DNA from: Escherichia coli
GTDB lineage: Bacteria > Pseudomonadota > Gammaproteobacteria > Enterobacterales > Enterobacteriaceae
Assembly (NCBI RefSeq): GCF_024298765.1
Contig: NZ_CP101210.1
DNA: 64,000 nucleotides
Reading direction: 5' to 3' (one strand)
This document shows, in pieces, positions 43,295 through 60,384 of the stretch; the stretch's first letter is position 1, and each line of letters opens with the position of its first letter. A model generated the notes under the pieces. That model searched no databases. It was not told the DNA's origin and saw only the letters and a program-made list of their open reading frames with translations. The translations under genes and the position numbers were made by a program.

Positions 43295-43424
43295 TTTTGT
43301 TCTCCTTAATTATGTAAGGAGTATTTGATCATGTATAAGCAATAAAAAACAGCTTTAGGTAATGAGGAATATCTCAATTTTTAAACATAAAATGCGAATT
43401 GTCTAGTACAAAAAAGCAGCGTTA

Positions 43425-43531
43425 CGTGATCTTTCCCTGAGAGGTACAGGAACTGCGGGAGGAACTTTATCAGGTTAAACAGGGGTTAAGGGGATGCGGA
43501 ACGGGATGTTTAGTGTGCTGAACGAAAGCTA
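43425..43531 (+). pseudogene. SymE-like toxin gene remnant (internal deletion)
   Basis: Retains the leader and GTG start context and the 3' end of the intact copy at 46375-46725; central part deleted, early stop. Confidence 0.7.
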
Positions 43532-43587
43532 AATAATAAAAAAGCCGGGAAGATCTTATCTTTCCCGGCCATCTTGCCATACATTAA

Positions 43588-44022
43588 TTATTTATGAATA
43601 TAATATAACTGAACATCATATTCATTATCACTTAAAACTATTAGTCGATCGGGAAATGTAAATGCTAATGAAAGATCATATGTTTCATTTATCGAAAACA
43701 AACTCAATATGAAATTTGAAAAATTTTCGACATGAAGAGATATGCAAACATCTCCATTATAGAATATATTGCAAAGAATATCTTTTTTCACATTCAGTGT
43801 ACTTTCAACATCTCTCGCTAGATCATTAATATTTAAAGGTAAATTGAAAACTCTCCTTTCAATAATATTATCGGTTTTATTTATTGCCATTAGCATTTCT
43901 CGATGCCACATGAAGTCATTCTTACGTAAGAATGATACATCAAAGGAAGTGACACCATTTAATTTAGAAGCATAATCTTTTGCTCTAATTAAATTTAATT
44001 TATCTTCAAGGCTAATTTTCAT
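43588..44022 (-). CDS. Putative Rhs-toxin immunity protein (orphan cassette 1)
   Basis: 144-aa low-GC ORF starting 4 nt before the stop of the orphan toxin reading frame; typical rhs-CT/rhsI arrangement. Confidence 0.6.
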   Translation of the reverse strand: MKISLEDKLNLIRAKDYASKLNGVTSFDVSFLRKNDFMWHREMLMAINKTDNIIERRVFNLPLNINDLARDVESTLNVKKDILCNIFYNGDVCISLHVENFSNFILSLFSINETYDLSLAFTFPDRLIVLSDNEYDVQLYYIHK

Positions 44023-44470
44023 AATATATATGATGATCCTTAGTTACAGGGTCATTGATCTTCTGATATCTATCACTTTTGAAATCGTATGTTCTAGGAT
44101 CAGCGCCCGGTTTAGGTTGTCCTGCATGTGCGTGAGGGCCAGGTGCCCTAGGATCTGCCGTGTGCTCGACTACAACTTTCTTACGTCCGTAGGCATCTGT
44201 ATATTCATAATATCGCCCATGAGACCCTAAATCTTCCGAATATTTATAATTTGTTTGTCCCCTTCTTCTAGGATCATTTCCAACGGTCCATTGCCTATTA
44301 GGTTGCTGTGAACGAGGTATGCCCGCAAGATCTTTTGCTTTATTTAGTGCCTGACGACGGTTTCTTAATTCACCACATTTAAGACCAAGCGGATCTATCC
44401 AGCTTACTGGATTAGGCGCGTAAGCATATAAGTTTAGCCCCCCCGCCAGCCCTATCGGGTCGGGTTACGT
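44011..44470 (-). pseudogene. Orphan rhs C-terminal toxin remnant (no start codon; in-frame stop before the DPxGL motif)
   Basis: Reverse-strand frame reads ...[46 protein letters not shown] followed by a 125-aa unique domain ending at the immunity gene; not in the ORF track because it lacks a start. Confidence 0.7.
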
Positions 44471-44634
44471 AAATGTTCCACAGTCCGAGTCGTAGTACCT
44501 CAGAAGGTTGCAGTGCAATCCCGCCTTGCGACATCAAGGCATAGTTTCAGAAAAAGTAAGGAGCAATCACCATACCCCAATTCACTGGGTGCTAAATAAT
44601 ATCTGGTAACATCCCTTACTTCAATTCTATTTCA

Positions 44635-45030
44635 TTACAACTTCTTTACTTTCCATATTCTTTGCGCAGCTAAAAAAGATACTCCTTTGAACCAAGACGC
44701 ACATTCAATAACTTGTTCCCATGAATATATTTTATGTGAGCTAAATTTTATCGATTCATCTTGGTTCATTATCTCAATAAAATAATATCCTTTATTATAA
44801 TCTCTTTTTTCTATTCTATCTTCAGCTCTTGCCGAACGTATAGAAATAACACAATCATCTAATAAACAAAATCTTTTCTTTATAATCGCATCATCTTGGT
44901 TCCATGGATTTGTACTTGCCATTTGTTCTGATTGTTTCAGCTCATTCACTACTGTATACCAAATAGCTTCGGTATCACTTGCCTTTGCATTCTCTCTATC
45001 AGACTCGGATCTAAATATAATTTTGTCCAT
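44635..45030 (-). CDS. Hypothetical protein, possibly an orphan immunity gene
   Basis: 131-aa low-GC ORF between H-repeat copy 2 and the orphan toxin remnant; no recognisable motif. Confidence 0.4.
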   Translation of the reverse strand: MDKIIFRSESDRENAKASDTEAIWYTVVNELKQSEQMASTNPWNQDDAIIKKRFCLLDDCVISIRSARAEDRIEKRDYNKGYYFIEIMNQDESIKFSSHKIYSWEQVIECASWFKGVSFLAAQRIWKVKKL

Positions 45031-45107
45031 TTTAATAATCCAAATGTAAATTACTTAAAATACCCTCTGCCTCATTCCAGGCATTGACATGGGAACCCAG
45101 GGAAAGA

Positions 45108-46244
45108 TTACGAAAGCCCGCTCCCAGCAAGGACTGACGCCAGATAGTTTCTGTCCATGGCTGCTTTTCGCATCTTACGTCTTAACCCTGCCTTGAATAC
45201 CTTATCATTCGTCAAAATATTAATAGCGATGTGCCGTATCCCTGAAAATAATTCTGCTGCATTTCCTCTTCTTATTTTGCAGTCGTCTTCATTCATTACC
45301 ACGTCCAGACGCCAGTGCAGCTTATTCTCCACGTGCCAGTGGTTTCGGATTGCTGTGGCGAACTTCTCTGCGGTTAAATCAGCAGAACTGATATAATATC
45401 TGACCGTCATTTCTGGCTCTTTCTTTTGTTCTGCTATTATTGACCGAAAGGAGACTGCCACGCATAATTTCTTCAGACCTTTCCATTCAAACGTGAAATC
45501 AATAAGTTCATCAGGGACATCGCAAACAATATGAAGACGGATTTCTTCTCTGCCGTGACTTTTTTCACTAATTGCGTAACTGTCATGCTCTGGATTATTT
45601 AATTCTTTCAGTGGGAATTTTTCCTCAAAGGCTTTATTAAGCCGCCCCTGATTTCCTTTTACAGCGAATAAATAATCACCGCCCTGTTTTTGTATCTTCT
45701 CTGCGATATCTTTCTGGCACCCCATCGCATCAGTTGTGATAATTTTTCCTTTAATATCCAACATGTTAAGAAGTTCAGGGATAGCTGTGATCTCATTGGA
45801 TTTCTCATCCGTCCTGATCTGTCCGATGACCAGACTGTGCATTGTTGAGAACGCACTAATGACATGAATCGCTCCCCTGCGGCGACTCTTGTCATAAGAA
45901 TGCCGGAGCGTTTTTCCATCAATTGCAATAACGTCTTTATCATCTGAAGAATGGCAGTCACGCATCCAGTTAATAAAGCACTCGTGAAATTTTGCAGGAC
46001 TGATACAGGATACAACTCTGGCAATGGTATCGTGAACAGGAATACCATTTTCAAAATCACCATATTGCTTCAAAAAATCGAGATGTGTTTCCCCAAAATC
46101 CTCTATATCTTCCCAGCCTTCTGCACAAGAAATAACGGCACAAATAGTCAACAGTAGAATATCCGACAATTTATGTTCCACTTTCCAGGCTTGTCTGTAA
46201 TCGGGGATAATAGAAATATGTTCCATCAATTTTTTAAGTTCCAT
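45108..46244 (-). CDS. H-repeat-associated protein (ISAs1-family transposase), intact copy 2
   Basis: 378-aa ORF of the YhhI/YdcC/YbfD H-rpt type; element left end about 45094 (aagattacgaaagcccgc). Confidence 0.9.
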
Positions 46245-46374
46245 TTTGTTCTCCTTAATTATGTAAGGAGTATTTGACCATGTATACGCAATAAAAAACA
46301 GCTTCAGGTAATGAGGAATATCTCAATTTTTAAACATAAAATGCGAATTATTTAGTACAAAAAAGCAGCGTTAC

Positions 46375-46725
46375 GTGATCTTTCCCTGGTTAATCATGGC
46401 TGAACACGATATTACGCCAGAAATCACCATTTCCAAAACACAGCGCCGCTATAAAGTCGGCTATGTCAGAGCCCGCCACATAAACAGCAAAACCTACATG
46501 ACCACGTACTACTCACGACACCCCAGCCTGAACCTCAAGGGCGACTGGCTGAAAGAGGCCGGATTTGATACCGGGCGGGGTGTCACGGTGAAGATTTCGG
46601 AGGGGTGCCTGACCATCATCGCTGACAGTGACGAGGTGCAGGAACTGCGGGAGGAACTTTATCAGGTTAAACAGGTGGTTAAGGGGATGCGGAGCGGGAT
46701 GTTTAGTGTGCTGAACGATAATTAA
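46375..46725 (+). CDS. SymE-like toxin (AbrB/SpoVT-fold type I toxin family), intact copy
   Basis: 116-aa ORF from GTG (or 109 aa from ATG at 46396); contains the SymE-family core LKGDWLKEAGFDTGRGVTVKISEGCLTI. Confidence 0.75.
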   Translation: MIFPWLIMAEHDITPEITISKTQRRYKVGYVRARHINSKTYMTTYYSRHPSLNLKGDWLKEAGFDTGRGVTVKISEGCLTIIADSDEVQELREELYQVKQVVKGMRSGMFSVLNDN

Positions 46726-46734
46726 ATAATAAAA

Positions 46735-46765
46735 AGCCGGGAAGATTTAATTTTCTTTCCGGCTT
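46735..46765 (-). terminator. Hairpin terminator between the SymE-like gene and the immunity gene
   Basis: gccgggaaga...tctttccggc hairpin flanked by an A-run on the plus strand (U-run for the minus-strand transcript); same motif at 43540-43572 and 51983-52018. Confidence 0.55.
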
Positions 46766-46776
46766 TGTCTAATTAA

Positions 46777-47172
46777 TTATTCAGGAAATTTTCTATTTTT
46801 ATATGATGACCATAAGTGAGTGATCGACCAAGAGTTTTCCTTTCCGAGTACAAAACTTTTGGAGATTATCTCAATATCATCAGATATACGCGAAGATATT
46901 TCAGAATTATTAATCACCCTGAATGAGTATTTAAATGCCTTTTCTCGCAAGGAATCAATAAACTCAATATCATCATCCTGAAAACTTTCCTTATCTAATG
47001 AATTAAACTCACTCATCCAGCAATCATCAAACTCCGGTTCATCTCTTGAGTCTAATGCACTATCAACATTTAATGATTTAAGAAAATCAAAAAATGACGG
47101 GGTGGATAAACAGTTATCAATTTCAATTAGCTTATTATTAATCATCACATTAACCCTTGTCCTTTGAGCCAA
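46777..47172 (-). CDS. Putative Rhs-toxin immunity protein (orphan cassette 2)
   Basis: 131-aa acidic low-GC ORF immediately 3' of and overlapping the GHH-type orphan toxin. Confidence 0.6.
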   Translation of the reverse strand: MAQRTRVNVMINNKLIEIDNCLSTPSFFDFLKSLNVDSALDSRDEPEFDDCWMSEFNSLDKESFQDDDIEFIDSLREKAFKYSFRVINNSEISSRISDDIEIISKSFVLGKENSWSITHLWSSYKNRKFPE

Positions 47173-47790
47173 ACCTCTATTAAATCAACAGCCTTGGATG
47201 GTGTCACATTAGTACCTAGCGTATAAGTTCCATTTGGAGATTTAACATCAACTCTGATGTCATCTAATTTTGAATACGCTTTTCTGTAAGCATCAAATAA
47301 CTCTTTATCCGAACCAAGGAAATCACCTTGTCTTGGACCTATCACATCTCGTTCCGCATGATGTAAACGCCAGTGATTATGTTCTGGATTTTCTCCTCTA
47401 GGGAATAATGTTGGGCGAGTTTTATCAGATCGGGAAACTTCAAACGGACGTCCTTTAGATTTACGAACCGCAGGAACATGATGTCCAGATTCACTCACGC
47501 CCATACACTTCTTCGTTAATCCAAGGGGATCGATCCAGCTTAACGGATTCGGTGCATAAGCATACAGGTTTAACCCGCCTCTTAGCCCTATCGGGTCCGT
47601 TACCATGAACCGCCCGACATCCGGATCATAGTACCTGTGCAGATTGTAATGCAGCCCCGTTTCCCTGTCGAGGTACTGTCCCTGGTAGCGCAGGTTCTGC
47701 TCCACCCCGCCGTGGTCCTTCTCCTGTATCGTGTTACCCCAGACCTGATACCCCGTCTCCCACACGATTTTCCCGTCACTGTCCGTCATC
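47145..47790 (-). CDS. Orphan rhs C-terminal fragment with GHH-signature HNH/EndoVII-like nuclease toxin domain
   Basis: Core end ([38 protein letters not shown]) followed by a unique domain containing SGHHVPAV and EHNHWRLHH; 5' end truncated by the H-repeat copy 3 insertion; the track Met is fortuitous. Confidence 0.65.
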
Positions 47791-47802
47791 TCCAGGGCAA
47801 GA

Positions 47803-48940
47803 TTACGAAAGCCCGCACCCCGCAAGGACTGACGCCAGATAGTTTCTGTCCATGGCTGCTTTTCGCATCTTACGTCTTAACCCTGCCTTGAATACCTTAT
47901 CATTCGTCAAAATATTAATAGCGATGTGCCGTATCCCTGAAAATAATTCTGCTGCATTTCCTCTTCTTATTTTGCAGTCGTCTTCATTCATTACCACGTC
48001 CAGACGCCAGTGCAGCTTATTCTCCACGTGCCAGTGATTTCGGATCGCTGTGGCGAACTTTTCTGCGGTTAAATCAGCAGAACTGATATAATATCTGACC
48101 GTCATTTCTGGCTCTTTCTTTTGTTCTGCTATTATGGACCGAAAGGAGACTGCCACGCATAATTTCTTCAGTCCTTTCCATTCAAACGTGAAATCAATAA
48201 GTTCATCAGGGACATCACAAACAATATGAAGACGGGTTTCTTCTCTGCCGTGACTCTTTTCACTAATTGAGTAACTGTCGTGCTCTGGATTATTTAATTC
48301 TTTCAGCGGAAATTTTTCCTCAAAGGCTTTATTAAGCCGCCACCTGATTTCCTTTTACAGCGAATAAATAATCACCTCCCTGTTTTTGTATCTTCTCTGC
48401 AATATCTTTCTGGCAACTCATCGCATCAGTTGTGATGATTTTTCCTTTAATATCCAGCATGTTAAGAAGTTCAGGGATAGCTGTAATTTCATTGGATTTC
48501 TCATCCGTCCTGATCTGTCCGATGACCAGACTGTGCATTGTTGAGAACGCACTAATGACATGAATCGCTCCCCTGCGGCGACTCTTGTCATAAGAATGCC
48601 GGAGCGTTTTTCCATCAATTGCAATAACGTCTTTATCATCTGAAGAATGGCAGTCACGCATCCAGTTAATAAAGCACTCGTGAAATTTTGCAGGACTGAT
48701 ACAGGATACAACTCTGGCAATGGTATCGTGAACAGGAATACCATTTTCAAAATCACCATATTGCTTCAAAAAATCGAGATGTGTTTCCCCAAAATCCTCT
48801 ATATCTTCCCAGCCTTCTGCACCAGAAATAACGGCACAAATAGTCAACAGTAGAATATCCGACAATTTATGTTCCACTTTCCAGGCTTGTCTGTAATCGG
48901 GGACAATAGAAATATGTTCCATCAATTTTTTAAGTTCCAT
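47803..48940 (-). pseudogene. H-repeat (ISAs1-family) transposase pseudogene, copy 3 (frameshifted)
   Basis: Split into two ORFs (47803-48156 and 48332-48940) by a 1-bp insertion (aagccgccacctg versus aagccgcccctg in the intact copy). Confidence 0.85.
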
Positions 48941-49619: not shown

Positions 49620-49946
49620 TTAATCACCCGGCTTCTCCCAACATTTTATCTTTTCTATTTCTCTCTCAATATCATCCATATCATCATCTCCAAGATCGGT
49701 ATTAAAATTTTCAGTAATAACCCTTCTTATTTCAGCCAACCGATGTGTAATATTTTTATCATCAATAAATTTAGTGGTTTCTTTAAAGTAAGAATTCAAC
49801 AATTTATCATCAATAACGTTCTGCTCTATACCATTGAAATAATACCTTGCAATATTCTTAAGTGATATCAATATGTACTCTACCTCACTTAGAATATAAA
49901 GGGCATCCTTCCCGGGTATATTAATTACATCATTGTTTTTATTCAT
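49620..49946 (-). CDS. Putative Rhs-toxin immunity protein (orphan cassette 3)
   Basis: 108-aa acidic low-GC ORF 1 nt downstream of the 601-aa orphan rhs. Confidence 0.6.
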   Translation of the reverse strand: MNKNNDVINIPGKDALYILSEVEYILISLKNIARYYFNGIEQNVIDDKLLNSYFKETTKFIDDKNITHRLAEIRRVITENFNTDLGDDDMDDIEREIEKIKCWEKPGD

Positions 49947-49947
49947 A

Positions 49948-51753
49948 TTATTTACGCCGAGTTATTTTTGCATTATCAGAAAGAACAATATCACCTTTCA
50001 CAGTCAATTCATCTATATGGTATCGAGGGTTTGTTACCCACTCTAATTGCTCGTTAGGTACATCTGTTTCCACATAATCTCTACCTTTCCCACGACCTAT
50101 TTGATATTTCGCCTCTATGTCTACTTGACTGAGTGGTTTTTTATTCGCAGGTTCCAAATATACACGACCGTTATCATGCGCCTTAATTATCCCACTTTCA
50201 GCAATCGCATTTGAACCTTTACGATTAGTATAATGCCGCACACGAGTAGTTCCATTACAGAGCTCTTTTTTTAATCCGAGTGGATCAATATATTTCAGCG
50301 GATTAGGCGCATAAGCATATAAGTTCAACCCACCCGCCAGCCCTATCGGATCCGTTACAATGAACCGCCCGACATCCGGATCATAGTACCTGTGCAGATT
50401 GTAATGCAGCCCTGTTTCCCTGTCGAGGTACTGTCCCTGGTAGCGCAGGTTCTGCTCCACCCTGCCGTGGTCCTTCTCCTGTATCGTGTTACCCCAGACC
50501 TGATACCCCGTCTCCCACACGATTTTCCCGTCACTGTCCGTCATCTCTTCCGGCGCGCCGTTCACATCCGTGTGAAAATACAGTATCCGGTTCGGGCCCT
50601 CTTTGCCCGCCTTATCCACCCGCGCCAGCGGTTCATAACTCCCCGGGTCCCTGTAGATGTACAGGCTGTCTGTTCCCTCCGGCCTGCTCTCCTGCGCCAG
50701 CCGCATTCCGTCCCATAAAAATGCCGTCCGGTTGTACGGTTTACCGTCAGGGCTGATGTGCTGTTTTTCCGTCCGCCTCCCCAGCGCATCGTACACATAC
50801 CGGTACGTTCCCCGCGCTGTCGTCACTTCCACCATCCGGTGTTCCGCATCATAACGGTAACTCTGCGTGCCGCTCCGCCCCTCCTTTTCCACCGCACGGC
50901 CAAATTCGTCGTAACGGTAGTGCACACCACGGTAAGACATCAGCCGGTTGAACGGCACCACGCTGTTTTCTGCCGTGGCCCTTTCCCCCGCGCGCCGCCC
51001 CAGCAGGTTTCCCGCCGCGTCGTACTGCCAGCTCGCCAGATACCCCTCATCCTCCGAGCGGCACGCCGTGATGCGCCCCGTGGGGTCGTAGAAGTAATCC
51101 GTTTCCCCCCGCCGGCTGTGCCGCGTCTTCAGCAGTTCATCCTCGCCACTGTAGCTGTACTGCCGGTCCGTGAACGTCTCCGGTACCACCCCGCGCATCC
51201 CGCTGTATGTCTCCCTGCGCTTCAGCCGCCCGGCGGGGTCGTAAAGCTGCCGCGTGCTCAGTCGCCCCTGACTTCTGAGCACTTCACGGTGCAGGGCGTC
51301 ACGAGTGAACTCGCTGATGACCTCCCGGTCCAGATTTATCTGCTGGAGATGGCCGCTGCCGTAGTACAGATGACGCTGCGTTCTGCCGTCCGGAAAGGTG
51401 GTGGCTGTCCGGTTGCTGAGTTCATCGTACTGATGGGTCAGGACGCCCTGCGCCGTCTCCTCAGTCAGCATCCGCCCCAGTCTGTCGTAACTGAAACGGA
51501 TAATCTCCGGTGCGTCTGTTTCCCCGGCATCCGACCGTCGGCGGCGGATTTCCAGTAACTGGTCTGCCGCATCATGGACGTATTCCGTACGGCTATCGGC
51601 TGTCTCCTTTGCCGTGAGCCGGCCCGCCGCATCACGTGCCAGCCGGTGGCGGATTTCACCGCCCCGGTCCCCGGTGAACACCACTTCCGTGACCGCGTTC
51701 AGCGCGTTGTAGCGGTACGTCTGGCGGCAGCCGTCGTGCTGCCAGCGCAGCAT
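49948..51753 (-). CDS. Orphan rhs fragment: about 480 aa of Rhs core plus a distinct C-terminal toxin domain
   Basis: YD-repeat core near-identical to the main rhs, then DPIGLAGG...DPLGL and a unique roughly 108-aa tail (KKELCNGTTRVRHYTNRKGSNAIAESGII...); rhs homology starts at DGCRQTYRY, so the track Met is fortuitous. Confidence 0.8.
   Translation of the reverse strand: MLRWQHDGCRQTYRYNALNAVTEVVFTGDRGGEIRHRLARDAAGRLTAKETADSRTEYVHDAADQLLEIRRRRSDAGETDAPEIIRFSYDRLGRMLTEETAQGVLTHQYDELSNRTATTFPDGRTQRHLYYGSGHLQQINLDREVISEFTRDALHREVLRSQGRLSTRQLYDPAGRLKRRETYSGMRGVVPETFTDRQYSYSGEDELLKTRHSRRGETDYFYDPTGRITACRSEDEGYLASWQYDAAGNLLGRRAGERATAENSVVPFNRLMSYRGVHYRYDEFGRAVEKEGRSGTQSYRYDAEHRMVEVTTARGTYRYVYDALGRRTEKQHISPDGKPYNRTAFLWDGMRLAQESRPEGTDSLYIYRDPGSYEPLARVDKAGKEGPNRILYFHTDVNGAPEEMTDSDGKIVWETGYQVWGNTIQEKDHGRVEQNLRYQGQYLDRETGLHYNLHRYYDPDVGRFIVTDPIGLAGGLNLYAYAPNPLKYIDPLGLKKELCNGTTRVRHYTNRKGSNAIAESGIIKAHDNGRVYLEPANKKPLSQVDIEAKYQIGRGKGRDYVETDVPNEQLEWVTNPRYHIDELTVKGDIVLSDNAKITRRK
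50362..51735. repeat. 1.37-kb direct repeat, copy A (orphan rhs core)
   Basis: Essentially identical to 52880-54253 (offset 2518 bp); the antisense track ORFs 50392-50718 and 50758-51558 recur identically at 52910-53236 and 53276-54076. Confidence 0.9.
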
Positions 51754-51774
51754 CTGCCCAACCGCAGCGACACG

Positions 51775-51978
51775 CCGGTGATCAAAATCAGCGCCAAATG
51801 GCTGAGAGAAGCGGGATTTGAGATCGGCACGGGCGTTACCGTGAAGATCTCGGAAGGCTGCCTGATCCTGCTTGCAGATAACAACGGAGTACAGGAACTG
51901 CGCAGGGAACTTTATCAGGTTAAACAGTCTGTTAAGGGGATGCGGAACGGGATGTTTAGTATGCTGAACGATAATTAA
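51775..51978 (+). pseudogene. SymE-like toxin gene 3' fragment
   Basis: Encodes ...IKISAKWLREAGFEIGTGVTVKISEGCLILLADNNGVQELRRELYQVKQSVKGMRNGMFSMLNDN; 5' part replaced by the orphan rhs junction. Confidence 0.7.
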
Positions 51979-52043: not shown

Positions 52044-52424
52044 CTAAATCAATCTTTTTTTTAATTCCCTTATTTCAGGAGTTAATGCAAAACTGTCTTC
52101 TAAAGATTCGTCATCCAAGGCCCAGTAATTAATAAGATCTATATGATTTTTATAATTATCAAGCAGAGTGTTGAGTGCTTTTACAATAACTTTATCTGAA
52201 GGAGGTACTCCAGAAGATAATAAATCATTACAGACATCAAGGGCTAAAGTCATTAATTCATTCTTCCCTTTTTGTGAGTAGCCATTATTTAAATATGCAG
52301 CAATATATTTACTTAACCACTCTTTAGTTCGATATTTTTCAGGCAGTTCATAAGCCCAATCTTGTGTAAACTTATCACTCACTGGTACACCAAGTTCACT
52401 ACAGATTTTATCTATTTCATTCAT
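52044..52424 (-). CDS. Putative immunity protein for the main Rhs toxin
   Basis: 126-aa low-GC ORF 18 nt downstream of the main rhs stop. Confidence 0.65.
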   Translation of the reverse strand: MNEIDKICSELGVPVSDKFTQDWAYELPEKYRTKEWLSKYIAAYLNNGYSQKGKNELMTLALDVCNDLLSSGVPPSDKVIVKALNTLLDNYKNHIDLINYWALDDESLEDSFALTPEIRELKKRLI

Positions 52425-52441
52425 ATATATCCTTCATTATT

Positions 52442-55400
52442 TTAGTTGTCGTGTGATGAATTGAATGGGAACGATGTACGTACAGAACCGTCGGGTTTTA
52501 CAACAACCCTTGCCATATCTGGAACTACCTCTGTCCCATCAGGTAAATAACCTCGACTTTTTATATTTGTAGGCAATGGCACATCATGCACACCTGGTCC
52601 TTTTTTGGCAACAGAAGCAATAAAATCAGCAGCAGAATTATCATCGAGATATTGTCCAACTTGATGACCTTTATTTCTGGCACGATCAATTAACTGATTT
52701 GGTTTCATTTTCTGTCCGTGTTCAGAAAAGGTGTGACCGTATGTAGGCTTACTTTTTGGATTTCCCCATTTGAAGTCAGATTTAGGACACAATCCAAGTG
52801 GGTCGATCCATGACAGTGGATTAGGTGCATACTGATATAAGTTTAACCCGCCTCTCAGCCCTATCGGGTCCGTTACCATGAACCGCCCGACATCCGGATC
52901 ATAGTACCTGTGCAGATTGTAATGCAGTCCCGTTTCCCTGTCGAGGTACTGTCCCTGGTAGCGCAGGTTCTGCGCCACCCCGCCGTGGTCCTTCTCCTGT
53001 ATCGTGTTACCCCAGACCTGATACCCCGTCTCCCACACGATTTTCCCGTCACTGTCCGTCATCTCTTCCGGCGCGCCGTTCACATCCGTGTGAAAATACA
53101 GTATCCGGTTCGGGCCCTCTTTGCCCGCCTTATCCACCCGCGCCAGCGGTTCATAACTCCCCGGGTCCCTGTAGATGTACAGGCTGTCTGTTCCCTCCGG
53201 CCTGCTCTCCTGCGCCAGCCGCATTCCGTCCCATAAAAATGCCGTCCGGTTGTACGGTTTACCGTCAGGGCTGATGTGCTGTTTTTCCGTCCGCCTCCCC
53301 AGCGCATCGTACACATACCGGTACGTTCCCCGCGCTGTCGTCACTTCCACCATCCGGTGTTCCGCATCATAACGGTAACTCTGCGTGCCGCTCCGCCCCT
53401 CCTTTTCCACCGCACGGCCAAATTCGTCGTAACGGTAGTGCACACCACGGTAAGACATCAGCCGGTTGAACGGCACCACGCTGTTTTCTGCCGTGGCCCT
53501 TTCCCCCGCGCGCCGCCCCAGCAGGTTTCCCGCCGCGTCGTACTGCCAGCTCGCCAGATACCCCTCATCCTCCGAGCGGCACGCCGTGATGCGCCCCGTG
53601 GGGTCGTAGAAGTAATCCGTTTCCCCCCGCCGGCTGTGCCGCGTCTTCAGCAGTTCATCCTCGCCACTGTAGCTGTACTGCCGGTCCGTGAACGTCTCCG
53701 GTACCACCCCGCGCATCCCGCTGTATGTCTCCCTGCGCTTCAGCCGCCCGGCGGGGTCGTAAAGCTGCCGCGTGCTCAGTCGCCCCTGACTTCTGAGCAC
53801 TTCACGGTGCAGGGCGTCACGAGTGAACTCGCTGATGACCTCCCGGTCCAGATTTATCTGCTGGAGATGGCCGCTGCCGTAGTACAGATGACGCTGCGTT
53901 CTGCCGTCCGGAAAGGTGGTGGCTGTCCGGTTGCTGAGTTCATCGTACTGATGGGTCAGGACGCCCTGCGCCGTCTCCTCAGTCAGCATCCGCCCCAGTC
54001 TGTCGTAACTGAAACGGATAATCTCCGGTGCGTCTGTTTCCCCGGCATCCGACCGTCGGCGGCGGATTTCCAGTAACTGGTCTGCCGCATCATGGACGTA
54101 TTCCGTACGGCTATCGGCTGTCTCCTTTGCCGTGAGCCGGCCCGCCGCATCACGTGCCAGCCGGTGGCGGATTTCACCGCCCCGGTCCCCGGTGAACACC
54201 ACTTCCGTGACCGCGTTCAGCGCGTTGTAGCGGTACGTCTGGCGGCAGCCGTCCGGATTTATCTGCTCCGCCAGACGGTCCAGCACGTCATGGCGGAACC
54301 GGTAGCTTTCTCCGTTCTCGTTTGTCAGCGTGACCAGACGCCCGTAAGCATCGTACCCGAACGCCGTCCTGCGCCCCGTCGCGTCTGTCCGGCTGCGCAC
54401 CCGGCCCTGCCCGTCCCGCTGCCAGCGCGTTATCCTCCCCATCGGGCTGGTGTACTTCACCAGCCTGCCCGCCGCGTCCGACTGGTAATTCACCGTGCGG
54501 CCGTCCGCCAGTATCACCTCCGTCAGGTGGCCGCTGTCGTCATACCCGTAGCGCGTGCTGTGGCTCTGCGCGTCTGTCATCCGTATCAGCCGCGTGCGTT
54601 CGTCGTAGAACCAGGCCGTCTGCGAGCCGGAACAGTCCGTGTGCCGCATGAGCTGCCCGTCTTCGTTCCACTGAAGGTATTTATTCCCCCCGCGCGCATC
54701 GGTTATCTGCACCACCTGGCCGTGGCGGTCATACTGATACCGGGTGTTCTGCTGCAGCGGGTCGGTCACCGCAAGAAGATTGCCGCGTTCATCGTACTCA
54801 CAGCACCAGCTGTTCCCCGCCGCGTCCACCTCCGTTTCCGGCTGGTGCCACACCGGGTGCCACTGTGTCTGTGCCACCCGCCCCAGCGGGTCGTGCGTCT
54901 CCGTGATATGCCCCTGCCGGTCATACACATAGCGCCATTTGCCGCCCTGCGCATCGGTCATTCCCAGTAACAGCCGTTCTTCGTCGCTCCAGCGGAACGT
55001 CGTCACCTGCCCGGCTTCGTCCTGGTACGCCGTCACCTGATTCTGCGCGTCCCACTGATGATAACGCGTGCGCCCCAGCCCGTCCGTCACGCACAGCCTG
55101 CGTGACGCCAGGCTCCACGCCAGCCGGTACTGTTCACCGCTGTCCGTGTGGTGCCCCGTCACCCGCCACGCTGCGTCATCCGGGCCTTCATACCAGCTCC
55201 ACTGGTAATAATACCCTTCGCCGCCCGGCTGGCGGTGCAGGGTCATGCAGTGGTTTTCGTCGTAAGCAAACTCGCGCAGCAGGTGTCCCGTGCTGTCGTA
55301 CACGCCGTTCAGGTCGCCGGCCTCGTCATAGCGGTAACGACGCAGCAGTAAAGGAGCCGTCTCAGGGAAATGCTGATAAATCTGTGTCACCCGCCGGGGA

Positions 55401-57100
55401 TGCGCCGCCAGTTCATAATGCAGACGGATGCACGGACGCTGCTGTTCACCGCTGATTTGCGTGATGCGCCCCAGCTCGTCGTAGTACAGATTCAGACAGT
55501 TGCTGTTGCGGTCGCCCAGCATTTTCAGCCGCTGGCGCTGCGGGTGATGCGGGTCGGCTTCAAACAGAAAAAACTGCCCGTCATCGCTGCTGATAAGCCA
55601 GTGCCCCTGCTCACCCCGCCTTACCGCCAGTCCTTCGCCGGGGCTGTAAAACCCGCTCCCCGGCAGCACGGCCTCCATATCCAGGCGTCGCCCCATGCCC
55701 GACACAAAGGTCATGCAGTTTTCGTCAGCAGTACCCGGCGTGCGCCCGAGGCTGACTTCATACATCACGCTCCAGCCCTGCCCGAACATCCCTTCCGTGC
55801 GGTCGTCACGACTGCTGTACACGCGCTGCCAGTCCAGCGGAAAGTGGCCCGGCAGACTGAAATCGAAGTCATCGTCATCGGCCAGATATTTGGCTCCGGT
55901 GGCGGCATTGACCGGATGCGGAAGGGCACTGATGGCCTTCTGCGTCATCACCCCCATCCCGACACTGGCAGCAAAACAGGCGATTTTAGAAAGCATTTTG
56001 CCCGGGCGAAGAAACATCAGCGCCACGGTTGCCACCAGGGTTATCTGCGACCTGCCGCTTCTGATATCCCTGACCACCAGTAACGGACCGCCAATGCGGA
56101 CATCCGGTGACACAAACGCCCCGTTCCCCGGCTCATTCACCACCCTGGCCTCGCAGGTGCAGCGTGCCCCGCTGCGTGCCGCCGGCTGGCTGTTGATACG
56201 CACATCCCGCGCGCCTTCCGCGATATATTCCGCTGCGGGCGGTTCATCATCGCCTTTGAACAGATTACTGATGCTGCCAATAACCGCATTCACTCCCTGA
56301 AAGGCGGTTTCCAGCATACCGTCCGGACTCAGCAGGTTAAGGGCCGTTCCCAGGGGGTCATCCAGAAAGGCGGCTTTTTTTTGTGCGAGAAACTGCGTCA
56401 GTGAGGAGGGATGTTTATGGCAGTCGATTTTATCGTCAGGGGTCGGGGTGGAGCCCGGGGCCGCACTGGCCACGGTGGGCTGCCATAGTTCCGACACAAA
56501 ATGTGTCACGCCATCCACCATTTCAGAACGCCCTTCTTCCGTACTGAGCTGGTCGTGCAGCGCCCGGGACATCAGCACAGGCCCTGTCACCGGGTTAACC
56601 GCCAGGGCTATGGCCCCCGCCATTTCCAGATATTCCCCGGCCACATCCAGGAACGTTCTGGCATCCTCCTGACGCTGCGCTTCTTCCTGTTCCGCCTTCG
56701 CCTGCGCCTCCTGCGCCTCAATGTCCTGCCGCGATGCCGCAGTCGCCGCGGCCCGCGCGGCAGGTTTGCTGTTGATCCATGTGTCGCCAGAGCCGGTGAG
56801 GATGTAACCTTCAATCTGAGGCGGGAAAAGCATATTTGCGAGGTCTGAACAGACTTCGCTGACCGTGTCTGTCACGCCGGTGTACACCATCGCCACACCC
56901 GCCACAAAACCGGTCAGCACGACGGCCGTGCACCCCATCGTGATCCCCACTGACGCCGCCAGTAACGAGGTTGTGCCGACAATGAGGGCATCAATAACGA
57001 CATTTGCGGCCACCTCCAGCACCGCCCCCAGCACATCTGCCATAAACGACGTATGCAGCAGGGCATCACCCTGCCTTGCCGCCCAGAATGCCTCTTCCAT
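52442..57100 (-). CDS. Full-length Rhs polymorphic toxin with N-terminal prePAAR-like motif and hydrophobic segment (T6SS effector-like), YD-repeat shell and variable C-terminal toxin domain
   Basis: 1552-aa ORF; N-terminus MEEAFWAARQGDALLH fits AARxxDxxxH, followed by about 55 hydrophobic residues and PAAR-containing segments; YD repeats; core ends PxxxxDPxGL (WIDPLGL) about 115 aa before the stop. Confidence 0.85.
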   Translation of the reverse strand: MEEAFWAARQGDALLHTSFMADVLGAVLEVAANVVIDALIVGTTSLLAASVGITMGCTAVVLTGFVAGVAMVYTGVTDTVSEVCSDLANMLFPPQIEGYILTGSGDTWINSKPAARAAATAASRQDIEAQEAQAKAEQEEAQRQEDARTFLDVAGEYLEMAGAIALAVNPVTGPVLMSRALHDQLSTEEGRSEMVDGVTHFVSELWQPTVASAAPGSTPTPDDKIDCHKHPSSLTQFLAQKKAAFLDDPLGTALNLLSPDGMLETAFQGVNAVIGSISNLFKGDDEPPAAEYIAEGARDVRINSQPAARSGARCTCEARVVNEPGNGAFVSPDVRIGGPLLVVRDIRSGRSQITLVATVALMFLRPGKMLSKIACFAASVGMGVMTQKAISALPHPVNAATGAKYLADDDDFDFSLPGHFPLDWQRVYSSRDDRTEGMFGQGWSVMYEVSLGRTPGTADENCMTFVSGMGRRLDMEAVLPGSGFYSPGEGLAVRRGEQGHWLISSDDGQFFLFEADPHHPQRQRLKMLGDRNSNCLNLYYDELGRITQISGEQQRPCIRLHYELAAHPRRVTQIYQHFPETAPLLLRRYRYDEAGDLNGVYDSTGHLLREFAYDENHCMTLHRQPGGEGYYYQWSWYEGPDDAAWRVTGHHTDSGEQYRLAWSLASRRLCVTDGLGRTRYHQWDAQNQVTAYQDEAGQVTTFRWSDEERLLLGMTDAQGGKWRYVYDRQGHITETHDPLGRVAQTQWHPVWHQPETEVDAAGNSWCCEYDERGNLLAVTDPLQQNTRYQYDRHGQVVQITDARGGNKYLQWNEDGQLMRHTDCSGSQTAWFYDERTRLIRMTDAQSHSTRYGYDDSGHLTEVILADGRTVNYQSDAAGRLVKYTSPMGRITRWQRDGQGRVRSRTDATGRRTAFGYDAYGRLVTLTNENGESYRFRHDVLDRLAEQINPDGCRQTYRYNALNAVTEVVFTGDRGGEIRHRLARDAAGRLTAKETADSRTEYVHDAADQLLEIRRRRSDAGETDAPEIIRFSYDRLGRMLTEETAQGVLTHQYDELSNRTATTFPDGRTQRHLYYGSGHLQQINLDREVISEFTRDALHREVLRSQGRLSTRQLYDPAGRLKRRETYSGMRGVVPETFTDRQYSYSGEDELLKTRHSRRGETDYFYDPTGRITACRSEDEGYLASWQYDAAGNLLGRRAGERATAENSVVPFNRLMSYRGVHYRYDEFGRAVEKEGRSGTQSYRYDAEHRMVEVTTARGTYRYVYDALGRRTEKQHISPDGKPYNRTAFLWDGMRLAQESRPEGTDSLYIYRDPGSYEPLARVDKAGKEGPNRILYFHTDVNGAPEEMTDSDGKIVWETGYQVWGNTIQEKDHGGVAQNLRYQGQYLDRETGLHYNLHRYYDPDVGRFMVTDPIGLRGGLNLYQYAPNPLSWIDPLGLCPKSDFKWGNPKSKPTYGHTFSEHGQKMKPNQLIDRARNKGHQVGQYLDDNSAADFIASVAKKGPGVHDVPLPTNIKSRGYLPDGTEVVPDMARVVVKPDGSVRTSFPFNSSHDN
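52880..54253. repeat. 1.37-kb direct repeat, copy B (main rhs core)
   Basis: Essentially identical to 50362-51735. Confidence 0.9.
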
Positions 57101-57118
57101 GTCCCGTTCCCTGTGTGA

Positions 57119-57349
57119 TTAATTCGTCCCGGCTTCCTGCCGCATCCTGAAGCGCAGATTCTTTTTAATTTCAGCCCAGCGCGTCATATCAGCCGGGGTC
57201 AGCGGTGTGGTTCGGGCGTAGGTGAAGGCCATCATGACCCGCTCACCCGGCAATACAAATGCCACCTGACACTGGTACACCTGCTCGTTACCCCGGAGAA
57301 ACTGGCTCTGTATTTGCAAACCGCCTCATTGAGATAATATTCCGTCATA
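57119..57349 (-). pseudogene. Possible degenerate Eag-type (DUF1795-like) chaperone gene remnant upstream of rhs
   Basis: ATG at 57347-57349 opens MTEYYLNEAV... (resembles the DUF1795 N-terminus) but stops after 38 codons; a second frame continues 66 codons to 57119; total length is about half that of an intact Eag gene. Confidence 0.25.
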
Positions 57350-58102
57350 ATAGAAGTCGTCCTTTTTAATAAATGAATTATTTATTGACAGGTTCTGTTT
57401 TTTAATCATGAATGTAATGTCTATCACCGCTTTACAGCACTCTTTATCTTTCAAGCCGTAATCACTAATAACATTAAGCAATTACCCATATTTACAATGA
57501 CCGGAACTGATATGCCGTTATGTATTTAACAATCCCAACATATTCACCATACAAATAAAATCACGAGTAACAAACACACTACCGCCTCCATATAAAAAAT
57601 GGACAGCTTATAAAATTGCATCTTGCATAGAAAGGGCTGAGATATCGAGTGTATTTTAATTATCAACTATAAATGTTGAATATTTTCATTAACAGAAACA
57701 CATCTTATCCCATTAGATATGTTAACAATCAATTATTCTTAACATATCACTAAAGTATATATTACTCTCTTTACTATCTGTTTTTATTGCGGTAGCGATA
57801 TTAATAGCAAAATTCGGAATTTATTTAGATGCTGGAATAAGAAAAAGTGATGGCGGCTTTCTCACCTTACCCTGAAGTTTCAGGAAAGTGTGTAAGGAAG
57901 GATGCAACCTAACTGGAGATTTCTGAGGATCTAGTTGCTTAGAGCGACAATGAAGGTGAACGCATCCAGAGTAGTCCTATGAAAGGATACTATTGAAAAT
58001 TGATGCTAAAACAGTGATTAAATGAACAACACCATGGAACCCGTTGATTCAAAACGCCTAAACCAGCCCCCTGATACGAGGCTGGCTTAAACGCGCAGGC
58101 AA

Positions 58103-58309
58103 TCAGTAAAAATCACCCGTTGCCTTTTCGGCCTGATCCATCCACACCGGTTTCTCGCTGGTTTTCGACCAGACGCGGTGCAGGTAGCTGTAAAAGCGGG
58201 CGCGGTCTTTCCAGAAAAGCATGAAAGGCAGCGCCAGAACGCCCGCTGCAACCGCATAAGTACGGCGTAAAAAGATAAGCCATGCAGGATATTCTCTGTA
58301 GAGTTCCAT
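58103..58309 (-). CDS. ybfA: Small inner-membrane protein YbfA (DUF2517)
   Basis: 68-aa [38 protein letters not shown]... Confidence 0.85.
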
Positions 58310-58520
58310 ACTTTTCTCCCCCTTTTGTATCTACCCGGTGAATGGCACCGGAAAAATGAATTTGTTTATCTGATGAAAATAGTACCGCCTTTTGTGTAAT
58401 TTTACTACTCATCCGACCACTTATTTTTGCTTATTGATGGTTTATTTACATTCACACTGTAATTAAGTTACACAAAAGTTAAATTAATACTAACCATCAG
58501 TTAAATCATGGCTTTTGCCA

Positions 58521-58540
58521 TTTTTATACTTTTTTTACAC
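58521..58540 (+). promoter_or_regulatory. Candidate KdpE-binding T-rich box in the kdpFABC promoter
   Basis: tttttatactttttttacac about 80-100 bp upstream of the kdpF start, resembling the known KdpE operator. Confidence 0.5.
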
Positions 58541-58621
58541 CACGCCCGAAGATTTTTGCGAAATCTTTGCAGCCAGAATTCTACCCTTCCGGTATCACTT
58601 TTAGGCCACTGGAGGTGCACT

Positions 58622-58711
58622 GTGAGTGCAGGCGTGATAGCCGGCGTGTTGCTGGTGTTTTTATTACTGGGTTATCTGGTTTATGCCCTGATCAATGCGG
58701 AGGCGTTCTGA
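58622..58711 (+). CDS. kdpF: K+-transporting ATPase small subunit KdpF (29 aa)
   Basis: GTG start after RBS ggagg; [29 protein letters not shown]; stop overlaps the kdpA ATG. Confidence 0.85.
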
Positions 58712-60384
58712 TGGCTGCGCAAGGGTTCTTACTGATCGCCACGTTTTTACTGGTGTTCATGGTGCTGGCACGTCCTTTAGGCAGCGGGCTGGCGCGGCTG
58801 ATTAATGATATTCCTCTTCCTGGTACGACGGGCGTTGAACGCGTACTCTTTAGCGCGCTTGGCGTCTCTGACCGCGAGATGAACTGGAAGCAGTATCTCT
58901 CAGCCATTCTTGGCCTGAATATGCTGGGGCTGGCGGTGCTGTTTTTTATGTTGCTCGGTCAGCACTATCTGCCGCTTAATCCACAGCAGTTGCCAGGGCT
59001 GTCATGGGATCTGGCGCTGAATACCGCCGTCAGCTTTGTCACCAATACCAACTGGCAATCTTATAGCGGTGAAACCACGTTGAGCTATTTCAGCCAGATG
59101 GCGGGCTTAACGGTGCAAAACTTTCTTTCTGCCGCCAGCGGGATTGCGGTGATTTTTGCCCTCATCCGTGCGTTTACCCGCCAGAGCATGAGCACACTCG
59201 GGAATGCCTGGGTCGATCTGCTACGCATCACGTTATGGGTGCTAGTCCCTGTGGCGTTGTTGATCGCACTGTTTTTTATTCAACAAGGTGCGCTGCAAAA
59301 CTTTCTGCCCTATCAGGCGGTGAATACCGTTGAAGGAGCGCAACAGCTGTTACCCATGGGGCCTGTAGCTTCTCAGGAAGCGATCAAGATGCTCGGTACT
59401 AACGGCGGTGGCTTCTTTAATGCCAACTCGTCGCATCCGTTTGAAAACCCAACCGCACTGACCAACTTCGTGCAGATGCTAGCGATCTTCTTGATCCCAA
59501 CAGCGCTGTGCTTTGCCTTTGGTGAAGTGGCGGGCGATCGTCGTCAGGGGCGCATGTTGCTGTGGGCGATGTCAGTGATTTTTGTTATCTGCACAAGCGT
59601 GGTGATGTGGGCAGAAGTTCAGGGTAATCCTCATCTGCTGGCGCTGGGTGCGGACAGCAGCATCAATATGGAAGGTAAAGAGAGCCGTTTCGGCGTGCTG
59701 GTCAGTAGCCTGTTTGCGGTCGTGACTACGGCGGCTTCCTGTGGCGCGGTGATTGCGATGCATGATTCGTTTACCGCTCTTGGTGGCATGGTGCCGATGT
59801 GGTTGATGCAAATTGGTGAAGTGGTATTCGGCGGCGTCGGTTCAGGCCTTTACGGCATGATGCTGTTTGTCCTGCTGGCGGTGTTTATTGCCGGGCTGAT
59901 GATTGGTCGTACACCGGAATATCTGGGTAAAAAAATCGACGTACGCGAGATGAAACTGACTGCACTGGCGATTCTGGTCACCCCGACGCTGGTGCTGATG
60001 GGCGCGGCGCTGGCGATGATGACCGACGCCGGACGTAGCGCCATGCTCAACCCTGGCCCGCATGGTTTTAGCGAAGTGCTGTACGCCGTGTCATCCGCCG
60101 CTAACAACAACGGCAGCGCCTTTGCCGGATTAAGCGCCAACTCTCCGTTCTGGAACTGTTTACTGGCGTTGTGCATGTTTGTCGGGCGCTTCGGGGTGAT
60201 TATCCCGGTGATGGCAATTGCCGGTTCGCTGGTGAGTAAAAAGAGCCAACCCGCCAGCTCCGGCACGCTGCCAACGCACGGCCCGCTGTTTGTTGGCCTG
60301 TTAATCGGCACCGTGTTGCTGGTTGGCGCACTGACCTTTATCCCTGCCCTGGCGCTTGGTCCGGTGGCGGAATATCTCTCCTGA
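58711..60384 (+). CDS. kdpA: K+-transporting ATPase subunit A
   Basis: 557 aa from [15 protein letters not shown]; the track ORF start lies upstream, inside kdpF. Confidence 0.95.

What the first reader, a model, noticed from the sequence alone, without database searches (positions are those of the whole stretch)
57119..57349. Possible Eag-type chaperone pseudogene immediately upstream of the prePAAR Rhs
prePAAR/TMD effectors normally have a DUF1795 (Eag) chaperone gene directly upstream. Here the 250 bp upstream of rhs carry an ATG opening MTEYYLNEAV... (reminiscent of the DUF1795 N-terminus) that stops after 38 codons, and a second frame continuing ...VMMAFTYARTTPLTPADMTRWAEIKKNLRFRMRQEAGTN to 19 nt before the rhs start. 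Total length is about half an intact Eag gene, consistent with an internal deletion and frameshift. If so, the main Rhs may be undeliverable in this strain.
Basis: inference. Interest (0 to 1): 0.5.

Follow-up and report, generated by a model that had tools for sequence, protein, structure and literature searches.

The report
Broken Eag chaperone gene before Rhs
The 230 bases upstream of this E. coli Rhs toxin gene are the wreck of its chaperone gene (a 223-base internal deletion plus frameshift), an ordinary pseudogene that RefSeq already annotates and that is backed up by a near-identical intact copy elsewhere in the genome.

Summary
Window 57119-57348 (- strand) is a remnant of a 453-nt eag gene (DUF1795/DcrB family, PF08786). 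Codons 1-10 are kept, nt 31-253 are deleted (223 nt, which shifts the frame), and the last 200 nt are kept at 99% identity to intact genes.

The intact 150-aa gene sits at the same kdp-ybfA/rhs site in other E. coli, for example RM9387. PGAP already labels the remnant a 'DcrB-related protein' pseudogene.

The same junction occurs in 96 of 5426 complete E. coli genomes, upstream of different, mostly intact Rhs toxins. The lesion is therefore old.

The inference that the Rhs is undeliverable because of this deletion is not supported. Strain 104, a near-identical genome of the window's lineage, has an intact Eag in a vgrG-eag-rhs island about 790 kb away. In strain JNE120442 that exact Eag protein is the adjacent partner of an intact Rhs whose first 100 residues are identical to the window's.

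Delivery is nonetheless doubtful for another reason. 57 of the 60 closest genomes lack the T6SS class this VgrG belongs to. Their only T6SS cluster, seen in strain 104, is a different class and often carries an 11-nt deletion in tssH.

This is ordinary genome decay and of low interest.

The parts
57349..57428 (-). Diverged relic of a vgrG 3' end plus the vgrG-eag spacer and the eag ribosome-binding site (AAAAAGGAC). This is the left edge of the rhs element at this site.
   Evidence: In one search, window 57326-57428 aligns to L005:19887-19993 (vgrG tail, spacer and eag start) at only 75.7%. RM9387 aligns to the same stretch at 96.9%. One search finds this flank at 90% identity or more only in the 96 deletion-allele genomes.
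57319..57348 (-). 5' remnant of eag: start codon plus codons 2-10 (MTEYYLNEAV).
   Evidence: Codons 8-10 differ among deletion alleles (GAGGCGGTT, GAGGAAGTT, GAGACGGTT), which indicates drift.
57318..57319 (-). Deletion junction. Nt 30 of eag is joined to nt 254, so 223 nt are missing (codons 11-84 plus one base). There is no microhomology.
   Evidence: The A37 junction reads GTT|TGGAAATACAG, against intact ...GTTGTAAC... and ...GGGCTGGAAATACAG.
57232..57234 (-). Premature TGA stop reached in the frame of the original ATG after the frameshift. It ends a 38-codon ORF.
57119..57318 (-). 3' remnant of eag: nt 254-453, covering codons 85 (partial) to 150 plus the TAA stop. It is out of frame with the ATG.
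   Evidence: PF08786 positions 77-126, E = 2.1e-5; 99.1% identity to L005 over a 219-nt alignment that covers these 200 nt and the 18-nt spacer. RefSeq annotates the matching stretch in strain 104 as a pseudogene, 'DcrB-related protein, missing N-terminus'.
57101..57118 (-). 18-nt eag-rhs spacer with a Shine-Dalgarno-like AGGGA, so rhs has its own translation start signal.
   Evidence: Read directly from the sequence. It is conserved in the intact loci.
52442..57100 (-). Intact class I prePAAR Rhs effector of 1552 aa. It has the prePAAR motif AARQGDALLH (aa 7-16, window 57053-57082) and a hydrophobic TMD region (aa 18-77, window 56870-57049). It also has a PAAR domain, DUF6531, 15 RHS repeats, the RHS core, a DPIGL motif and a 137-aa C-terminal toxin of unknown family.
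56831..57019 (-). Variable TMD cassette of the Rhs (aa 28-90). It is 37% identical in protein to the cassette of the paralogous Rhs in strain 104, and nt identity is 69% over rhs codons 1-100. The flanks are otherwise identical.
52044..52424 (-). Presumed cognate immunity gene (126 aa, WP_001002164.1, no Pfam hit).
   Evidence: The assignment rests on position only and is an inference.
49620..51735 (-). Displaced orphan rhs C-terminal fragment (49948-51735) with its immunity gene (49620-49946, WP_001039055.1).
   Evidence: In JNE120442 this immunity gene follows the main Rhs behind the same deleted eag.

Best explanation
Window 57119-57348 (- strand) is a dead eag gene. eag encodes the DUF1795/DcrB-family chaperone that normally shields the N-terminal transmembrane segment of the prePAAR Rhs toxin encoded just downstream.

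A 223-bp internal deletion (nt 31-253 of 453) removed codons 11-84, about 60% of the domain. It also shifted the frame, so translation from the retained ATG ends after 38 codons and the 66-codon C-terminal part is out of frame. The remnant has no function of its own.

The lesion is old and inherited. The same junction is found in 96 complete E. coli genomes, behind different Rhs toxin tips.

The loss is tolerated for two inferred reasons. First, a near-identical Eag in a vgrG-eag-rhs island about 790 kb away can plausibly serve this Rhs in trans. Second, in the window's own lineage the T6SS class these components belong to is mostly absent, so selection on delivery is probably relaxed anyway.

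Shown here: the homology, the deletion map, the frameshift, the population distribution, the existence and partner pairing of the second Eag, and the absence of the cognate T6SS class in close relatives. Inferred: trans-chaperoning, relaxed selection, and the delivery status.
For: Identity of the remnant:
- PF08786 matches the C-terminal frame at E = 2.1e-5. The intact ortholog scores 68.8 bits, E = 6.4e-19.
- An intact 453-nt gene lies at the same ybfA/rhs site in RM9387 and E189.
- Base-level alignments place the 223-nt gap between window 57319 and 57318.
- RefSeq annotates the matching stretch in strain 104 as a pseudogene.

Distribution:
- The junction is present in 96 of 5426 complete genomes.
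- It lies upstream of intact Rhs genes with different toxins and immunity genes in the window, A37, 06-00048 and JNE120442. In A20 the Rhs is frameshifted.

Backup chaperone:
- The deleted middle segment exists elsewhere in 204 of the 211 genomes that carry this eag family.
- In strain 104 it lies in vgrG-eag-rhs next to ansP.
- That Eag differs by 3 aa from the rhsC-site ortholog.
- A synthetic chimera of that eag plus the window's rhs codons 1-100 occurs naturally at 100% identity in 5 genomes and at 99.9% in JNE120442. In JNE120442 the Rhs is intact and its first 100 aa are identical to the window's.

Literature:
- About 10% of prePAAR effectors lack an adjacent eag and are presumed to use one encoded elsewhere (PMC7773334).

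Secretion system:
- The island VgrG is 74-77% identical to VgrGs inside the tagJ/tagK-type T6SS clusters, but 24% identical to the VgrG of strain 104's only cluster found, at metV.
- 57 of the 60 closest genomes lack that class's tssC.
Against: - No experiment was possible. Trans-chaperoning by the distant Eag is inferred from natural gene pairings only.
- In 64.1 and E7, the rhs paired with that Eag and carrying the window-type N-terminus is itself frameshifted. Only JNE120442 shows the pairing with an intact Rhs.
- The window does not contain the second locus or any T6SS genes. Statements about them rest on near-identical genomes (99.9% over 25 kb), not on the window's own genome.
- The left flank of the junction is far more diverged (76-78%) than the right (99%), and no intact gene with that left flank was found. 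The event may therefore have been an illegitimate recombination between diverged alleles rather than a simple deletion in a modern allele.
- Some carriers (A37, and probably GF131 and GPEC657) have no second eag, yet A37 keeps an intact Rhs.
Confidence: 0.9

Rival explanations
1. One reading: the eag deletion by itself makes the downstream Rhs unstable and undeliverable, so the rhs gene is a functionally dead relic because of this lesion.
For: - Deleting the cognate eag abolishes accumulation and delivery of Rhs effectors in P. protegens and S. marcescens (PMC7773334; PMC4524185).
- In A37 both eag copies are gone.
- In A20 the Rhs behind the same deletion is frameshifted.
Against: - An Eag differing by 3 aa is encoded elsewhere in strain 104, from the window's lineage, and the deleted middle segment exists elsewhere in at least 89 of the 96 deletion carriers.
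- That exact protein is the natural adjacent partner of an identical prePAAR-TMD.
- The published specificity concerns chaperones only 25% identical.
- The 4.6-kb rhs ORF is intact behind the same junction in four lineages with different toxins. A toxin-tip displacement also occurred after the deletion.
Confidence: 0.15
2. The junction did not arise by a simple intragenic deletion. It arose by illegitimate recombination, when an incoming or converting rhs element (3' eag plus rhs) was joined to codon 10 of a resident, diverged eag. The result is still a pseudogene, but the history differs.
For: - There is a sharp change in divergence exactly at the junction. The left 107 nt are 76% identical to all intact alleles, and the right 219 nt are 99% identical.
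- There is no microhomology at the junction.
- No intact gene with the left-flank type exists in 5426 E. coli genomes.
Against: - The same pattern is expected if a simple old deletion later became a barrier to gene conversion from the paralogous locus. The right side would be homogenised and the left side would not.
- No donor or parent allele was found.
Confidence: 0.3
3. The remnant still makes a useful product, for example a 38-aa peptide from the ATG or a C-terminal Eag fragment from an internal start.
For: The ATG and its ribosome-binding site are retained, and the 3' 200 nt are highly conserved.
Against: - The 38-aa ORF is out-of-frame read-through with no family match.
- Codons 8-10 drift among alleles.
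- The C-terminal fragment lacks about 60% of the domain.
- Conservation of the 3' part is explained by homogenisation with the paralogous locus.
Confidence: 0.03

Closest known systems
EagR1 of Serratia marcescens and P. protegens (DUF1795 chaperones of class I prePAAR Rhs effectors)
   Same: The gene position is the same, directly upstream of a prePAAR-TMD-PAAR-Rhs gene. The Pfam family is the same (PF08786). The intact E. coli ortholog has a similar length (150 aa).
   Different: The gene here is broken: codons 11-84 are deleted and the frame is shifted. Chaperone activity of the E. coli protein was not tested.
SciW of Salmonella Typhimurium (PDB 6XRB, 6XRR)
   Same: It is the closest solved structure to the intact E. 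coli Eag by sequence (residues 32-124 against 35-127). It is a chaperone of an Rhs N-terminus.
   Different: The similarity is only marginal for a single-sequence search (E = 0.002). The remnant retains only the part equivalent to the last third or so of SciW.
E. coli vgrGO1-eagR-rhs-ct orphan islands (Ma et al. 2017b, as summarised in PMC6730261)
   Same: The second locus in strain 104 (ansP side) has exactly this vgrG-eag-rhs-immunity layout. The window locus is the same kind of element without vgrG.
   Different: The window locus has only a 34-nt relic of vgrG and a dead eag. The reported dependence on a T6SS could not be met in most close relatives, which lack the cognate T6SS class.
prePAAR effectors without an adjacent eag (about 10% in Ahmad et al. 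2020, PMC7773334)
   Same: This is an Rhs with prePAAR and TMD whose chaperone, if any, must be encoded elsewhere in the genome.
   Different: Here the reason for the missing neighbour is visible: a decayed copy is still in place.

Membership tests
Eag / DUF1795 chaperone (Pfam PF08786 DcrB) | Sequence match to the family profile | tested here: inconclusive
   The remnant's C-terminal frame scores 25.1 bits (E = 2.1e-5) against a 27.2-bit cut-off, covering profile positions 77-126 only. The intact ortholog scores 68.8 bits. Homology itself is beyond doubt, with 99% nt identity to intact genes over 200 nt.
Eag / DUF1795 chaperone (Pfam PF08786 DcrB) | Complete open reading frame of about 150 aa encoding the whole domain | tested here: not met
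   223 nt are deleted and the frame is shifted, leaving a 38-codon ORF and a 66-codon ORF. It is therefore a pseudogene of the family, not a working member.
Eag / DUF1795 chaperone (Pfam PF08786 DcrB) | Encoded directly upstream of a prePAAR/TMD effector gene | tested here: met
   An 18-nt spacer separates it from the rhs ATG at 57100.
Eag / DUF1795 chaperone (Pfam PF08786 DcrB) | Binds the effector TMD and is needed for effector stability and delivery | not testable with these tools
   This needs co-purification and competition assays. Only natural gene pairings were examined.
Class I prePAAR effector (the downstream Rhs) | AARxxDxxxH prePAAR motif at the N-terminus | tested here: met
   AARQGDALLH at aa 7-16. 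The motif definition is from PMC7773334.
Class I prePAAR effector (the downstream Rhs) | N-terminal transmembrane region followed by a PAAR domain and an Rhs cage | tested here: met
   Hydropathy windows of 1.6 or more span aa 18-77. PF05488 PAAR matches at E = 3.5e-8, with 15 RHS repeats, DUF6531 and the RHS core.
Class I prePAAR effector (the downstream Rhs) | Delivered by a T6SS through a cognate VgrG | tested here: inconclusive
   No vgrG lies at this locus. A VgrG is encoded at the ansP island of strain 104. The T6SS class it resembles (74-77% identity to in-cluster VgrGs) is absent from 57 of the 60 closest genomes. The only cluster found in strain 104 is a different class, with 24% VgrG identity.

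The most novel reading that the evidence does not exclude
One Eag chaperone encoded about 790 kb away services two paralogous Rhs effectors whose TMD cassettes are only 37% identical. This redundancy let the local eag copy die long ago, while the rhs behind it kept swapping toxin tips and TMD cassettes. The Eag would then be promiscuous towards TMD sequence within class I effectors, not strictly cognate.
Probability: 0.4. Interest if true: 0.35.

Novelty: already known. Interest (0 to 1): 0.15.

Why it matters
It matters little beyond annotation. It shows that an rhs locus can lose its own chaperone gene and still be kept intact and keep acquiring new toxin tips. Presence or absence of an adjacent eag is therefore a poor predictor of effector status unless paralogous eag copies and the matching T6SS class are also checked. 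For anyone scoring T6SS effector repertoires in avian-pathogenic-type E. coli, the more important point is that this lineage mostly lacks the T6SS class these Rhs elements belong to.

Tried and rejected
- MAFFT pairwise alignment placed the gap wrongly. I replaced it with anchored and affine-gap alignments.
- NCBIfam gave no meaningful hit for either the remnant or the intact Eag.
- A single-sequence PDB search gave only a marginal SciW hit, E = 0.002, mixed with spurious complement-receptor hits.
- The promoter and terminator scan of 57000-58150 found one weak promoter-like site, fewer than in shuffles, so it says nothing about rhs transcription.
- I searched for the origin of the diverged left flank. 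Sensitive blastn against 5426 E. coli genomes found it only in deletion alleles. Two exact-pattern scans of GTDB representative genomes found nothing.
- I looked for a T6SS at the aspV/yafV and dkgB sites of strain 104 and found none.
- I rejected the idea that the intact form is an insertion, because the intact gene matches the full Pfam domain.
- I rejected programmed frameshifting, because 223 nt of coding sequence are simply absent.

Full report
**What is in the sequence**

On the - strand, an ATG at 57348 opens a 38-codon frame (MTEYYLNEAV...SGS) that stops at 57232-57234. The adjacent frame reads LQIQSQFLRGNEQVYQ...RMRQEAGTN to a TAA at 57119-57121. That stop lies 18 nt before the ATG (57100) of a 1552-aa Rhs gene at 52442-57100.

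The Rhs is a textbook class I prePAAR effector. It has AARQGDALLH at aa 7-16 and a hydrophobic stretch at aa 18-77. It also has a PAAR domain, DUF6531, 15 RHS repeats and the RHS core (motif definition in PMC7773334).

**Identity of the remnant**

The second-frame peptide matches Pfam PF08786 (DcrB/DUF1795), profile positions 77-126 of 127. The score is E = 2.1e-5 and 25.1 bits, just under the 27.2-bit cut-off.

The window is E. coli. The locus is the kdpFABC-ybfA / rhs / ybgA-phrB site. A 1-kb stretch around the remnant is 100% identical to strain 104 and other genomes. A 25-kb stretch is 99.9% identical to strain 104, and 44 genomes cover at least 80% of it, including APEC O78:H4 E14033 and APEC O2-211.

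RefSeq already annotates the stretch as a pseudogene: 'DcrB-related protein, incomplete, missing N-terminus'. In RM9387 and E189 the same site carries an intact 453-nt gene (150 aa, WP_001542752.1). That gene scores 68.8 bits on PF08786. Its closest solved relative is SciW, at a marginal E = 0.002.

**Anatomy of the lesion**

Anchored alignments show three features:
- eag nt 1-30 are retained (window 57348-57319).
- nt 31-253 are missing. That is 223 nt, or codons 11-84 plus one base.
- nt 254-453 are retained (window 57318-57119).

The junction is blunt, with no microhomology. In A37 it reads GTT|TGGAAATACAG. The missing codons correspond to about 60% of the domain.

To the right of the junction the DNA is 99% identical to intact genes. 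To the left, 107 nt are only 76-78% identical to every intact allele. Those 107 nt comprise a 34-nt relic of a vgrG 3' end, the spacer and eag codons 1-8. Among the 5426 complete E. coli genomes this left flank is known only in deleted form. Two exact-pattern scans of species-representative genomes found nothing.

My reading is an inference. The deletion is old, and it has since blocked leftward gene conversion from the paralogous locus. The right side is therefore kept modern while the left side preserves old divergence. An illegitimate join between diverged alleles cannot be excluded.

**Population picture**

The junction is present in 96 of 5426 complete genomes (confirmed). About 44 further genomes have the intact gene in the same context (140 full-length matches, minus 96).

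The same junction lies upstream of different full-length Rhs proteins with different toxin tips and immunity genes. These are the window, A37 (rodent, Australia; Imm26 immunity), 06-00048 and JNE120442. In A20 the Rhs is frameshifted.

In JNE120442 the main Rhs ends with the toxin/immunity pair (WP_001039055.1) that appears in the window as the displaced orphan at 49620-51735. At least one toxin-tip displacement therefore happened after the eag deletion. Codons 8-10 of the remnant vary among carriers, as expected for a drifting pseudogene.

**Is the Rhs stranded without a chaperone?**

The literature shows that Eag proteins are needed for stability and delivery of their effectors. The demonstrated specificity is between chaperones only 25% identical (PMC7773334; PMC4524185). 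The same paper notes that about 10% of prePAAR effectors lack an adjacent eag and presumably use one encoded elsewhere.

The deleted middle segment is present elsewhere in 204 of the 211 genomes that carry this eag family. In strain 104 it lies in a vgrG-eag-rhs-immunity island next to ansP, about 790 kb away. That Eag (WP_000141612.1) differs from the intact rhsC-site ortholog at 3 of 150 residues. Its C-terminal tail is identical to the remnant's.

The two Rhs paralogs of strain 104 are 97% identical over 1418 aa, with two exceptions:
- a sharply bounded TMD cassette (aa 28-90, 37% identical);
- the toxin tips.

To test whether the distal Eag ever partners the window-type cassette, I searched with a synthetic chimera. 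It joined the strain-104 ansP-site eag, the spacer and the window's rhs codons 1-100. The chimera occurs naturally at 100% identity over 771 nt in five genomes and at 99.9% in JNE120442. In those genomes the same VgrG and the same Eag protein precede an Rhs whose first 100 residues are identical to the window's. That Rhs is intact in JNE120442 and frameshifted in 64.1 and E7.

Conversely, 06-00048 and 64.1 carry the other cassette behind the dead eag. One Eag sequence is therefore naturally paired with both cassettes. Trans-chaperoning is plausible but untested.

A37 is the exception. Its ansP-site eag and the rhs 5' end are also deleted, yet its rhsC-site Rhs remains intact.

**Is there a machine to deliver it?**

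Strain 104 has no T6SS genes at the aspV/yafV island or next to dkgB. It has one T6SS cluster at metV.

The island VgrG is only 24% identical to that cluster's VgrG. It is 74-77% identical to the VgrGs that sit inside tagJ/tagK-type T6SS clusters ending in vgrG-eag-rhs, as in VE-T9 and RM9387. The tssC of that class is 98% conserved between those two strains. It is 42% identical in protein to the metV tssC.

I ran a chimeric query of a lineage marker (window 57349-58948) plus that tssC. It showed that 57 of the 60 genomes with a 100% marker have no such tssC. The exceptions are 2014C-3338, SCU-171 and JNE120442.

In addition, the metV cluster's tssH carries an 11-nt deletion shared by 62 complete genomes, although sister strain STE15 has the intact version. 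A review citing Ma et al. 2017b states that vgrGO1 and eagR are needed for Rhs-CT delivery and that this delivery is T6SS-dependent (PMC6730261).

In the window's lineage the Rhs is thus probably not deliverable by its cognate system. The main reason is the missing machine, not the dead chaperone gene. This is an inference from close relatives, because the window itself contains none of these loci.

**Verdict**

The finding is real and correctly interpreted as an Eag pseudogene made by internal deletion and frameshift. It is already annotated in RefSeq, and it belongs to the published class of prePAAR effectors that lack an adjacent chaperone gene.

The functional corollary needs re-wording. 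The deletion alone does not strand the Rhs, because a near-identical Eag with a proven natural pairing to this exact N-terminus exists in the lineage. The lineage nevertheless seems to have lost the matching T6SS. This is ordinary decay of an rhs element, of low interest. A modestly interesting side observation is that one Eag sequence is paired in nature with two TMD cassettes that are only 37% identical.

Noticed in passing
window 56831-57019 (rhs aa 28-90); L005:20523-20711; L012, L014, L016: The TMD-encoding part of the Rhs is a sharply bounded cassette, 37% identical in protein between the two types. It sits inside otherwise identical genes. It is exchanged between the rhsC-site and ansP-site loci in sister strains: strain 104 has type A at rhsC and type B at ansP, and strain 64.1 has the reverse.
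   Followed up: partly
window 49620-51735 (-), compared with L022:2283-7245: The orphan rhs C-terminal fragment and its immunity gene (WP_001039055.1) in the window form the tip of the main Rhs in JNE120442. This is a clear case of C-terminal displacement that occurred after the eag deletion.
   Followed up: partly
window 51736-51978 (+) and 46396-46725 (+); also L002, L004, L005, L012: A SymE-family type I toxin gene lies convergently just after the immunity gene at nearly every rhs locus examined. The association is conserved, but I did not explore the reason.
   Followed up: no
L010:20280-22905 (strain 104, metV T6SS cluster; outside the window): tssH (clpV) carries an 11-nt deletion and frameshift shared by 62 complete genomes. 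It is therefore real and not a sequencing error. Sister strain STE15 has the intact 312-nt version.
   Followed up: partly
L018:3731-9806 (strain A37, ansP site): A deletion joins the vgrG 3' end directly to a 5'-truncated rhs, removing eag and the prePAAR-TMD region. A37 therefore has no Eag of this family, yet keeps an intact Rhs behind the deleted eag at the rhsC site.
   Followed up: partly
window 42535-48940: There is a cluster of ISAs1-family elements (ISEc1 at 45108-46244, a frameshifted copy at 47803-48940, and a ybfD pseudogene at 42535-43295). They are interleaved with orphan toxin/immunity modules, including an HNH/EndoVII-fold toxin at 44012-44455.
   Followed up: no
L021:18042-24301 (RM9387 T6SS cluster): Even in a strain with intact eag genes and the cognate T6SS class, tssL (internal stop) and tssM (frameshift) are annotated as pseudogenes. 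This suggests that this T6SS class is decaying in several lineages, or that the assembly contains errors.
   Followed up: no
L005:16830-17713 and the equivalent genes in L014-L016, L018: Two conserved small genes (176 and 118 aa, no Pfam hit) always precede the island vgrG. One of them is named 'type IV secretion protein Rhs' in some records. Their function is unknown.
   Followed up: partly
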